Source of the DNA: a virus | Strand: one strand, 5' to 3' | Virus genome (UHGV): UHGV-0325397 | DNA length: 14,104 nt | Shown here: piece by piece, positions 4,640 to 5,425 of the stretch | Position numbering within the stretch: position 1 is the first letter of the stretch | Layout of the letters: the number at the start of each line of letters is the position of its first letter | The notes under the pieces: model-generated | Told to the model about the DNA's origin: nothing | Seen by the model: the letters and a program-made list of their open reading frames with translations, nothing else | The model's database searches: none | Made by a program: the position numbers and the translations under genes

Positions 4640-4852
4640 TTATTCGCGAGCTTTGAGCATGGCATCAGCAATAAAGTAGGCATCATCTGCTAATTCTTTG
4701 TACTGTGGTGAATTCTGTCCACCACCAAAGGAATGTCCGTCCCATCTGCGCACTATTGCTGCCATAGCCTTAGCAGCGAAGTAATCACGTAATGTCGCAT
4801 CACTTGCCATTTCTGGGCGTTTGATATCTTCTTCATAAAACTCGCACATCAT
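4640..4852 (-). CDS. Hypothetical protein (70 aa), accessory gene at the ral/sieB position
   Basis: ATG at 4852 overlaps the stop of the upstream gene (ATGA); GGAGG upstream; no recognisable motif. Confidence 0.45.
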   Translation of the reverse strand: MMCEFYEEDIKRPEMASDATLRDYFAAKAMAAIVRRWDGHSFGGGQNSPQYKELADDAYFIADAMLKARE

Positions 4853-5145
4853 TCACCTCCCAGAGCCTTGCTGATTGCTGCAAGACCTTTATTAACAGCT
4901 CCATACCATTCTGGATATGTTGTCGTTGTTCTATTTTTGGATTGCTTAAGTAATAACTGAAGTGCTTCGAGAAGGTCAGGTGCTGCCGCTATTAAATTGG
5001 CATCTTCAATACATTGAACTTCCTCACAGATTGCAATATACGAACGCCAGCCTGCGCCATTTTCAAGTGAGTCTGCCTGGATTATTTTAATCTCATCGCC
5101 ATCCATCATTATTTCCCACTTACCTTCAGTACCTTTGAATTCCAT
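4849..5145 (-). CDS. Hypothetical protein (98 aa from ATG 5145; 120 aa if the GTG at 5211 is used)
   Basis: ATG at 5145 preceded by GAGGTG; the alternative GTG at 5211 overlaps the upstream stop but has a weak RBS. Confidence 0.4.
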   Translation of the reverse strand: MEFKGTEGKWEIMMDGDEIKIIQADSLENGAGWRSYIAICEEVQCIEDANLIAAAPDLLEALQLLLKQSKNRTTTTYPEWYGAVNKGLAAISKALGGE

Positions 5146-5200
5146 ATTCACCTCTATGCTTGCTGCCAAAACAATGAACCATCCGGAAATTCCAGATAGC

Positions 5201-5425
5201 TCATAATTCACTCTTCAATACTTCCAACTTACTAATCGCCGATAGATATCCGCGCTGATAGGGCATCATCATTCCTTCGAGCTTGCCACTTCTTAACTCC
5301 TCCCTGAGCAATTGTATTGCTTGATCAATAACCTCTGCCTTAGCGTCCTTTATGGCTTGCTTTCGGGGCTTTGCTTTCTGCTTTGACAGATTTCTCAAGC
5401 ATGATGGAATGTATGTCTGATTCAT
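5201..5425 (-). CDS. Hypothetical basic, predicted-helical protein (74 aa)
   Basis: ATG at 5425 preceded by GAGG with 6 nt spacing (the track start at 5428 is a GTG one codon upstream); first gene downstream of the N-like ORF. Confidence 0.45.
   Translation of the reverse strand: MNQTYIPSCLRNLSKQKAKPRKQAIKDAKAEVIDQAIQLLREELRSGKLEGMMMPYQRGYLSAISKLEVLKSEL

What the first reader, a model, noticed from the sequence alone, without database searches (positions are those of the whole stretch)
4640..5425. Three unknown small genes at the ral/sieB hotspot next to N
Between the N-like gene and the tL-type terminator (4517-4544) are three tightly packed, overlapping ORFs of about 74, 98-120 and 70 aa with no motif I recognise. 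In lambda this position holds ral (restriction alleviation) and sieB (superinfection exclusion). It is the first region transcribed from pL and lies upstream of the terminator, so it is a plausible location for an uncharacterised host-takeover, anti-restriction or exclusion module, possibly acting as a unit.
Basis: inference. Interest (0 to 1): 0.55.

Follow-up and report, generated by a model that had tools for sequence, protein, structure and literature searches.

The report
Three shuffled early phage accessory genes
The three small genes are real, but they are separately exchangeable, function-unknown accessory genes in an already described hypervariable spot of P22/lambda-like prophages, not a fixed three-gene module.

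Summary
On the minus strand between an HK620-type N gene and a strong terminator lie three real genes: A (5201-5425, 74 aa), B (4849-5145, 98 aa, not 120) and C (4640-4852, 70 aa). All have Shine-Dalgarno sites, many homologues and purifying selection.

This is the hypervariable N-to-gene-17 region of P22-like phages, and Silas et al. already rank it as a top 'Ral' accessory region. The three genes are not a unit.
- A is a narrow enterobacterial family. It follows N and ends in its own terminator-like hairpin.
- B belongs to the very large XkdD/Y8K6 family (Pfam PF27050). P22 orf78, at the same position, is a member.
- C is a variant of a widespread phage family (GGPAFP...RDYFAAKAM) that lacks the N-terminal motif.

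In related phages A, B and C assort independently. ral, orf184 and about ten other cassettes can sit between A and B. B is always translationally coupled to whichever of three unrelated small genes follows it. B- and C-family genes do recur as neighbours in distant prophages.

No homology or fold match gives a function. The most likely role is individually acting early host-takeover or counter-defence proteins; this is inferred. Interest is low to moderate.

The parts
5896..5924 (-). pL-like sigma-70 promoter (TTGACA, 17 nt spacer, GATTAT, with TG) that would drive leftward early transcription through N, A, B and C
   Evidence: Consensus scan, 10 of 12 matches. It lies between the cI repressor gene (6046-6687) and N. 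Its function was not tested.
5429..5701 (-). HK620-type antiterminator N gene (90 codons), cut to 52 aa by a TAA nonsense codon at 5543-5545
   Evidence: The translation shows an internal stop where four relatives have Ser (TCA). It matches phrog_271, N-like, E 4e-14. The twin locus is labelled PF25694 N_peptide.
5201..5425 (-). Gene A: 74 aa, basic (pI 9.7), no Pfam family. A narrow enterobacterial family that sits directly after N.
   Evidence: phrog_5305, E 5.5e-37. Only 40 clusters, all Enterobacteriaceae. The preceding gene is N in 53 of 62 unique intervals; in 7 no upstream ORF was in range and in 2 it is c35. dN is 0.20 with saturated dS against 69-70% identical homologues. pI.
5174..5204 (-). 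Hairpin followed by UUGUUUUGGCA, overlapping A's stop codon. Terminator-like cassette boundary.
   Evidence: Terminator scan. RNA fold -20.9 kcal/mol, z -2.95. The same sequence follows A whatever gene comes next, and other cassettes end in a similar hairpin plus TTTTTGGCA.
4849..5145 (-). Gene B: 98 aa, acidic (pI 4.5). Member of the XkdD/Y8K6 family (Pfam PF27050 Phage_P22_Y8K6).
   Evidence: PF27050 is precomputed on homologues of 54-98% identity and on the identical gene of L327. phrog_1273, E 8.3e-32. 13,893 representative proteins match the profile. P22 orf78 matches the family HMM at E 7.7e-8. AF2 model: three strands plus two long helices, pLDDT 73.
4640..4852 (-). Gene C: 70 aa, acidic. 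Helical hairpin of the widespread 'GGPAFP...RDYFAAKAM...ADAMLKAR' phage family, here without the N-terminal GGPAFP motif. Its start overlaps B's stop (ATGA).
   Evidence: It matches the C-terminal part of phrog_2201, E 6e-20. The conserved core is residues 20-70. 472 or more viral hits and 160 hits in species-representative genomes. AF2 model: helices 18-36 and 49-69. dN/dS 0.07-0.10.
4517..4546 (-). Strong intrinsic terminator (tL-type) that closes the accessory region
   Evidence: 8-bp stem with 5 GC pairs plus T8; fold. P22 annotates a terminator at the other (downstream, c3-side) end of gene 17, not here, so this site has no annotated P22 counterpart in the stretch shown.
4193..4504 (-). 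Gene 17 homologue (P22 gp17), the conserved right-hand flank of the hotspot
   Evidence: Pfam PF17420 GP17, E 1.8e-55, matching residues 33-130 of the long ORF. It is called as 103 aa in the twin locus.

Best explanation
Interval 4640-5428 holds three independent accessory-gene cassettes of the leftward early (pL) operon of a P22/HK620-like E. coli prophage. They occupy the hypervariable N-to-gene-17 region, which is the published 'Ral' accessory region.

Shown:
- Each gene is real and conserved.
- A occupies the slot next to N and carries its own terminator-like hairpin.
- The middle slot holds ral, orf184, X83, Nmad5, DUF7446 and others in relatives. It is empty here.
- B (XkdD/Y8K6 family, like P22 orf78) occupies the penultimate slot. 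It is translationally coupled to a last-slot gene drawn from at least three unrelated families; here that gene is C.
- Cassettes are exchanged by recombination at short conserved joints. These are the hairpin plus TTTTGGCA linkers and the conserved 3' end of B.

Inferred:
- The proteins are small, soluble, non-membrane early proteins that act individually by binding host or rival-phage proteins. This means host takeover or counter-defence, not prophage-expressed exclusion.
- B and C each have invariant helices that frame hypervariable segments. This would fit a conserved scaffold presenting fast-evolving binding surfaces.
- Recurrent B-C neighbourhood in distant prophages suggests the two families work in the same process. 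They are not obligate partners.
For: Architecture and shuffling:
- Searches show the mosaic region. Searches give the counts.
- Before A: N in 53 of 62 intervals (7 had no upstream ORF in range, 2 had c35).
- After A: 16 different genes.
- Before B: 17 different genes.
- After B: c6 32, c7 31, C 18.

Known hotspot:
- The P22 map is 24, sieB/esc, ral, orf78, orf87, 17.
- Silas et al. rank the 'Ral' accessory region second. Their library contains ral, orf184 (my cluster c15), orf123 and orf110 (B family) and orf57 (C family).

Family membership.

Early lytic rather than lysogenic expression:
- There is a pL-like promoter upstream and no convincing internal promoter.
- There are no hydrophobic segments; the maximum 19-residue Kyte-Doolittle score is 1.1 or less.
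- A B homologue occurs in virulent Vequintavirinae phages.
- PADLOC defence models give no significant match (only one weak, sub-threshold hit for A, E 0.016).

Scaffold pattern: B has three invariant blocks (residues 3-10, 49-62, 90-95), and elsewhere the top residue frequency is below 0.4 except at a few scattered positions (32, 36, 47, 48, 63, 87, 89). C shows the same pattern.

B-C neighbourhood:
- 9 of 74 divergent viral C loci have B within about 500 nt.
- 4 of 66 divergent B loci have C directly adjacent.
- 20 of 80 prophage C loci from different species have B within 5 kb. 19 of these are on the same strand and 13 lie within 450 nt.
- 10 of 10 genomic contexts of the exact C protein have B upstream.
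Against: - No function is demonstrated for any of the three.
- Both AF2 models are of moderate confidence (pLDDT 73). The strand region of B is below 60.
- B-family (orf110, orf123) and C-family (orf57) genes were in the Silas et al. screen and are not mentioned among hits. This weakly argues against a strong stand-alone counter-defence or toxicity phenotype in the strains and phages tested. I could not read the per-gene fitness values.
- The B-C neighbourhood could simply reflect both families living in the same kind of small-gene array. Both gene orders occur, and most B genes have no C nearby.
Confidence: 0.6

Rival explanations
1. B plus its downstream gene (here C) is a two-gene functional module. 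B would be a constant adaptor or chaperone, and the interchangeable last-slot protein (C, c6, c7 or DUF551) would be the variable effector. A is unrelated.
For: - B's stop overlaps the next gene's start by 1 or 4 nt in 81 of 87 cases. No hairpin linker separates them, unlike every other cassette joint.
- C is preceded by B in 18 of 19 unique lambdoid intervals and in 10 of 10 contexts of the exact protein.
- P22 orf78 and orf87 have the same coupled layout.
- B-C adjacency recurs in Providencia, Morganella, Geopseudomonas, Achromobacter and environmental phages.
Against: - The body of B does not co-vary with the partner type; only its last ~6 residues do.
- The partners are three or four unrelated folds.
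- In distant phages both orders (B then C, C then B) occur, sometimes with one or two genes between.
- 75-90% of divergent B or C genes lack the other within 5-10 kb.
- Some B-family genes stand alone, for example KpS8 gp030.
Confidence: 0.2
2. The genes are prophage-expressed superinfection-exclusion or defence genes (morons) that replace sieB and ral at this position.
For: - P22 and lambda carry sieB here, and the neighbouring gene 17 is annotated as exclusion-related.
- Prophage hotspots often hold defence genes (literature listed).
- A weak promoter-like site lies inside C at 4693-4721.
Against: - No significant PADLOC hit (one weak sub-threshold match for A, E 0.016).
- No membrane segments, whereas SieB is known from the literature to be a membrane protein.
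- All three are co-oriented with pL and lack an upstream promoter. The number of promoter-like sites in the region is no higher than in shuffled sequence (3 against 3.4).
- B-family genes occur in strictly virulent phages.
- The proteins are far smaller than known single-gene defence proteins.
Confidence: 0.1
3. The proteins serve the phage's own early programme. They would be modulators of antitermination (A next to N), or of recombination and replication (B and C next to gene 17, cIII, kil, erf), rather than acting against host defences.
For: - A is basic (pI 9.7) and always follows N.
- XkdD, which gives the B family part of its name, lies in the PBSX early region (my own knowledge, not tested here).
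- The KpS8 B homologue sits among nucleotide and NAD metabolism genes.
- No hit was reported in a counter-defence screen.
Against: - All three are dispensable. Many related phages with the same N, gene 17, erf and replication genes lack them.
- Core regulators are not normally swapped among a dozen unrelated cassettes.
- The hypervariability of B and C fits an arms-race target better than a conserved phage partner.
Confidence: 0.1

Closest known systems
P22 orf78 (Swiss-Prot-style name Y8K6; Pfam PF27050 Phage_P22_Y8K6; NCBI 'XkdD/Y8K6 family phage-associated protein')
   Same: Gene B shares the family motifs (LxAAPELLEAL helix, AAIxKALG C-terminus). It has the same size class and the same position just upstream of the last small gene before gene 17. 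It shows the same start/stop coupling to the next gene.
   Different: B's N-terminal half (EFKGTxGxW plus strands) differs from that of P22 orf78. The P22 partner is a DUF551 protein, not C. Neither protein has a known function.
The 'Ral' accessory region of enterobacterial phages (Silas et al., bioRxiv 10.1101/2023.04.06.535777; also PMC12373910)
   Same: It is the same locus between N and gene 17/cIII. The same gene pool is present: ral (orf87), orf184 (mEp213_045), Sf101 orf123 (B family) and orf57 (C family, same N-terminus as the window's C).
   Different: The window has the minimal version, with no ral and no orf184, and a different C allele (61% identical to orf57). The paper reports phenotypes for ral and orf184 only.
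Lambda/P22 Ral (PF11058) and SieB
   Same: They occupy the same hotspot. ral is inserted exactly between A and B in the closest complete E. coli genome.
   Different: No sequence relationship to A, B or C. In P22, SieB is about 190 aa, lies on the opposite strand and has its own promoter. Nothing comparable exists in the window.
Phage 'GGPAFP...RDYFAAKAM' small proteins (phrog_2201 C-terminal region, phrog_37111, phrog_20565)
   Same: Gene C has the two conserved helices and the variable loop between them.
   Different: C lacks the N-terminal GGPAFP motif found in most members. The family is uncharacterised.

Membership tests
Pfam PF27050 Phage_P22_Y8K6 / XkdD-Y8K6 family (gene B) | Match to the family profile | tested here: met
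   PF27050 is precomputed for 54-98% identical proteins and for the gene in locus L327, which is identical to the window's B. The local Pfam copy lacks this model, so a direct scan returned nothing.
Pfam PF27050 Phage_P22_Y8K6 / XkdD-Y8K6 family (gene B) | Homology to the name-giving P22 protein (orf78) | tested here: met
Pfam PF27050 Phage_P22_Y8K6 / XkdD-Y8K6 family (gene B) | Conserved motif blocks: F-K-G-T-x-G-x-W, A-x-L-I-A-A-A-P-x-L-L-E-A-L and A-I-x-K-A-L | tested here: met
   All three blocks are present in B. They are conserved at 0.87-0.99 frequency in 148 family members.
'Ral' accessory region of lambdoid/P22-like phages | Hypervariable gene content between conserved flanks (N and gene 17/cIII), with ral in some members | tested here: met
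   135 unique intervals hold more than 25 cassette families, including ral, between N and gene 17. See also the P22 map and the published ranking.
Ral antirestriction family (PF11058) | Sequence match to Ral | tested here: not met
   No Pfam, NCBIfam or PHROG match of A, B or C to Ral. Ral is a separate 66-aa cassette in relatives.
SieB-type superinfection exclusion | Membrane protein of about 190 aa with its own promoter, expressed in the lysogen | tested here: not met
   No ORF of that size on either strand of the interval. No hydrophobic segment in A, B or C. No excess of promoter-like sites. Expression in the lysogen cannot be tested here.
Known anti-phage defence systems (PADLOC-DB) | Match to any defence-protein model | tested here: not met
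   Only one weak, sub-threshold hit for A (E 0.016, 13 bits). None for B or C.
DNA-mimic anti-restriction proteins (Ocr/ArdA type) | Strongly acidic elongated fold that mimics DNA | tested here: inconclusive
   B and C are acidic (net -7.5 and -4.4). There is no sequence or fold similarity to solved structures. The models are of moderate confidence.
GGPAFP...RDYFAAKAM phage family (gene C) | Two conserved helices plus the N-terminal GGPAFP motif | tested here: inconclusive

The most novel reading that the evidence does not exclude
B (XkdD/Y8K6) is one of the largest uncharacterised small-protein families of tailed phages, with about 14,000 clusters at 50% identity. In the most novel reading, B and the C family form a loosely linked pair of scaffold proteins whose hypervariable segments are fast-evolving inhibitors of host immune or takeover targets. 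That would make them a new, very widespread class of counter-defence proteins, with B translationally coupled to interchangeable partner effectors.
Probability: 0.15. Interest if true: 0.65.

Novelty: already known. Interest (0 to 1): 0.3.

Why it matters
As it stands, the finding restates something already catalogued. The N-to-gene-17 region of P22/lambda-like phages is a recombination-driven hotspot of small early genes, most of unknown function. These three genes are ordinary occupants of it.

The useful residue is narrower.
- Gene B belongs to a huge family with no assigned function. The family has three invariant motifs and hypervariable segments between them.
- B is always translationally coupled to an interchangeable downstream gene.
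- B- and C-family genes are recurrent neighbours across Gamma- and Betaproteobacterial prophages.

If either family turns out to inhibit a host defence or hijack a host hub, thousands of 'hypothetical' phage genes would be annotated at once.

Tried and rejected
- **Family scans.** Pfam-A, NCBIfam and PADLOC scans of A, B and C gave no significant family.
- **PDB sequence searches.** Single-sequence and profile searches found nothing below E 0.1.
- **Rfam.** A scan of 3500-7200 found no RNA family.
- **Literature.** Searches for the B motif, PF27050, XkdD and Y8K6 returned nothing relevant. The per-gene fitness values for orf57, orf110 and orf123 were not in the supplementary files held as text.
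- **Toxin-antitoxin pair for B/C: rejected.** There is no defence or TA model hit, and the partner is exchangeable among unrelated families.
- **Hidden sieB-like gene on the other strand: rejected.** The longest plus-strand ORF in the interval is 42 aa.
- **120-aa form of B starting at GTG 5211: rejected.** It would run through the conserved hairpin and A's stop codon, and no homologue supports it.
- **B-partner co-evolution: rejected.** Only B's last ~6 residues track the partner.

Full report
**What is in the sequence**

The window is the early region of a P22/HK620-like lambdoid prophage. In order it carries:
- integrase and excisionase;
- SSB, a Rad52-type recombinase and a cIII-like gene;
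- gene 17;
- the three ORFs of the finding, then N;
- a LexA-type repressor, cro, cII, replication genes, the nin region and Q.

Over 5.6 kb it is 99.96% identical to a contig of E. coli GCA_003686655.1 (locus L327).

On the minus strand a pL-like promoter (5896-5924) is followed by these elements:
- N, 5429-5701;
- gene A, 5201-5425, 74 aa;
- a 55-nt spacer with a hairpin;
- gene B, 4849-5145, 98 aa;
- gene C, 4640-4852, 70 aa, whose ATG overlaps B's TGA;
- a strong intrinsic terminator, about 4517-4546;
- gene 17, Pfam GP17, E 1.8e-55.

The 120-aa reading of B from GTG 5211 is not supported. Homologues and public gene calls start at the ATG, which has a good Shine-Dalgarno site.

**The ORFs are real genes**

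- Each matches a PHROG family of unknown function: A phrog_5305, E 5.5e-37; B phrog_1273, E 8.3e-32; C the C-terminal part of phrog_2201, E 6e-20.
- Nei-Gojobori comparisons with diverged homologues show purifying selection. B has dN/dS 0.11-0.26 and C 0.07-0.10. A has dN 0.20 with saturated synonymous sites.
- No sizeable ORF lies on the opposite strand.
- None of the three has a hydrophobic segment. A is basic (pI 9.7). B and C are acidic (pI 4.5 and 4.9).

**What each gene is**

*Gene A.* It is a narrow family of 40 clusters at 90% identity, all from Enterobacteriaceae, with no Pfam domain.

*Gene B.* It belongs to Pfam PF27050, named Phage_P22_Y8K6. PGAP calls some members 'XkdD/Y8K6 family phage-associated protein'.
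- The local Pfam copy lacks this model, which explains the empty scan.
- A profile search of 1.84 billion representatives found 13,893 proteins at E ≤ 0.001. Nearly all are stand-alone proteins of about 100 aa.
- The family has three almost invariant blocks: F-K-G-T-x-G-x-W, A-x-L-I-A-A-A-P-x-L-L-E-A-L and A-I-x-K-A-L. Elsewhere it is hypervariable.
- P22 orf78 lies between ral and gene 17. It matches a family HMM at E 7.7e-8.
- A homologue also exists in virulent Vequintavirinae phages, for example Klebsiella phage KpS8 gp030.

*Gene C.* Its core (residues 20-70) is a helical hairpin of a widespread phage family. Members normally begin with a GGPAFP motif, which C lacks. The family occurs in prophages of Gamma- and Betaproteobacteria and in MAGs assigned to other phyla.

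**No functional assignment from homology or structure**

These searches gave nothing informative:
- PDB sequence and profile searches;
- Foldseek against BFVD (only uncharacterised viral proteins);
- PADLOC;
- Rfam.

Both AF2 models are of moderate confidence, pLDDT 73.

**The locus is a known hotspot, and the three genes are not a unit**

I fetched 240 viral loci anchored on A, B or C. I then clustered all ORFs between N and gene 17 in 135 unique intervals. More than 25 cassette families occupy the region. The layout is positional.
- A, when present, follows N directly: 53 of 62 intervals, with 7 lacking an upstream ORF in range.
- B is the penultimate gene.
- Between A and B lies a variable slot. 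It holds ral, an 83-aa gene (X83), or clusters c12, c14, c15, c16, c17, c18, c20, c22, c26, c27 and others.

Co-occurrence is low:

| Anchor | Loci | With A | With B | With C | With both others |
|---|---|---|---|---|---|
| B | 71 | 6 | - | 14 | 1 |
| A | 70 | - | 20 | 7 | 6 |

No complete E. coli genome among 5,426 has A, B and C contiguous. The two closest carry ral or X83 between A and B. A few draft genomes (L327, L331) do have N-A-B-C contiguous. The window therefore shows the minimal state, with the middle slot empty.

P22 itself reads 24, sieB/esc (opposite strand), ral, orf78 (B family), orf87 (DUF551), gene 17.

Silas et al. (bioRxiv 10.1101/2023.04.06.535777) rank a 'Ral' accessory region second among about 190. 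Their 200-gene library includes:
- ral (orf87);
- mEp213_045 (orf184, my cluster c15, which triggers the gop-beta-cII abortive system);
- Sf101 orf123 and orf110, both B family;
- Sf101 orf57, C family, with the same N-terminus as the window's C.

orf57, orf110 and orf123 are not named among the hits in either paper's main text. I could not read their fitness values.

Zaworski et al. (PMC8022706) state that most genes of the early left operon of P22-like phages have no known function.

**How the shuffling works**

Each cassette ends in a short hairpin followed by TTTT(T)GGCA. A's own version (window 5174-5204, -20.9 kcal/mol, z -2.95) is constant whatever gene follows. In the window, A's hairpin is joined directly to B's ribosome-binding site. 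The same joint occurs in three viral loci. I infer that these elements serve as weak, N-suppressible terminators and as homologous linkers for cassette exchange.

B is different. Its stop overlaps the next gene's start by 1 or 4 nt in 81 of 87 cases. The next gene is c6 (32 intervals), c7 (31) or C (18). Only the last ~6 residues of B track the partner, so the joint lies inside B's conserved 3' end. B's body does not co-evolve with the partner. B itself is mosaic, with at least three N-terminal modules and several C-terminal segments.

**Is there any link between the genes?**

A shows none. For B and C there is a real but loose association.
- C is preceded by B in 18 of 19 lambdoid intervals and in 10 of 10 contexts of the exact protein.
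- In divergent phages, 9 of 74 viral C loci have a B-family gene within about 500 nt.
- 4 of 66 divergent B loci have C directly adjacent, and 8 have it within 10 kb.
- 20 of 80 prophage C loci from different species have B within 5 kb. 19 of these are on the same strand and 13 lie within 450 nt.
- Thirteen of 20 within 450 nt is far more than a uniform spread over ±5 kb would give (about 2 expected).
- However, both gene orders occur, intervening genes occur, and most members of each family lack the other.
- One divergent contig (L164) carries A-, C- and B-family genes in the order A...C...B.

I read this as shared residence in the same kind of early small-gene array, and possibly the same process. 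It is not an obligate complex.

**Most likely function (inference)**

The three proteins are small, soluble and co-oriented with pL, and they lack their own promoter. They are dispensable, rapidly exchanged, and housed with ral and a known trigger of an abortive-infection system. B also occurs in virulent phages. This fits individually acting early host-takeover or counter-defence proteins better than prophage-expressed exclusion. The invariant helices and hypervariable segments of B and C would fit a scaffold with evolving binding surfaces. The apparent absence of a reported phenotype for homologues in the published screen tempers this view.

Rivals considered are a B-plus-partner module, a defence or exclusion moron, and an internal regulatory or recombination accessory. 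They are listed with their tests in the rival explanations.

**Context for this particular prophage**

N carries a TAA at 5543-5545 where four relatives, including the near-identical twin locus, have Ser53. The protein is cut to 52 of 90 residues. If the truncated protein has lost antitermination activity, transcripts from pL would tend to stop at the hairpin after A or at the strong terminator after C. This is an inference from lambda N biology, not tested here. In that case A, B and C might still be made on induction, while gene 17 and everything downstream would be poorly expressed.

**Verdict**

- The 'hotspot' reading is right but already published.
- The 'three-gene unit' reading is not supported.
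- Function remains unknown.

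Noticed in passing
window 5543-5545 (minus strand, within N 5429-5701): The N antiterminator gene has a premature TAA where four relatives have TCA (Ser53). One of them is a 99.96% identical twin locus. N is therefore cut to 52 of 90 residues, and this prophage is probably defective in early antitermination.
   Followed up: partly
window 5174-5204 (minus strand); equivalent sites in L004-L163: Every cassette in the N-to-gene-17 region ends in a short hairpin followed by TTTT(T)GGCA. A's hairpin folds at -20.9 kcal/mol (z -2.95). These look like weak terminators that also serve as recombination linkers between cassettes.
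   Followed up: partly
window 4193-4600 (minus strand): The mechanical ORF for gene 17 (135 aa) runs upstream through the terminator. The Pfam GP17 match starts at residue 33, and the twin locus aa. The true start is therefore the ATG at 4504, just after the terminator.
   Followed up: yes
L003 2679-3002 (mEp213_045) and cluster c15 in L015, L037, L041, L042, L044, L048, L049, L116, L125: The published trigger of the gop-beta-cII abortive system (Silas et al. orf184) is one of the alternative occupants of the slot between A and B, or directly upstream of B. That slot is empty in the window.
   Followed up: partly
L414 2504-2761 (Klebsiella phage KpS8 gp030): A B-family protein (85 aa) occurs in virulent 145-kb Vequintavirinae phages. 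It sits between genes annotated as NMN adenylyltransferase / NrdA-like and a PnuC-like NMN transporter.
   Followed up: no
window 7429-8073 (plus strand): A 214-aa gene between cII and the replication O-like gene is labelled T5orf172/MUG113 (GIY-YIG-like) in the twin locus L327. It is another inserted accessory gene in the early right operon.
   Followed up: no
L164 2611-2832: A divergent environmental viral contig has an A-like gene (69% identical) with an in-frame stop after codon 50. In the same region it has C-family and B-family genes in the order A...C...B, followed by a TolA-like 323-aa gene instead of gene 17.
   Followed up: partly
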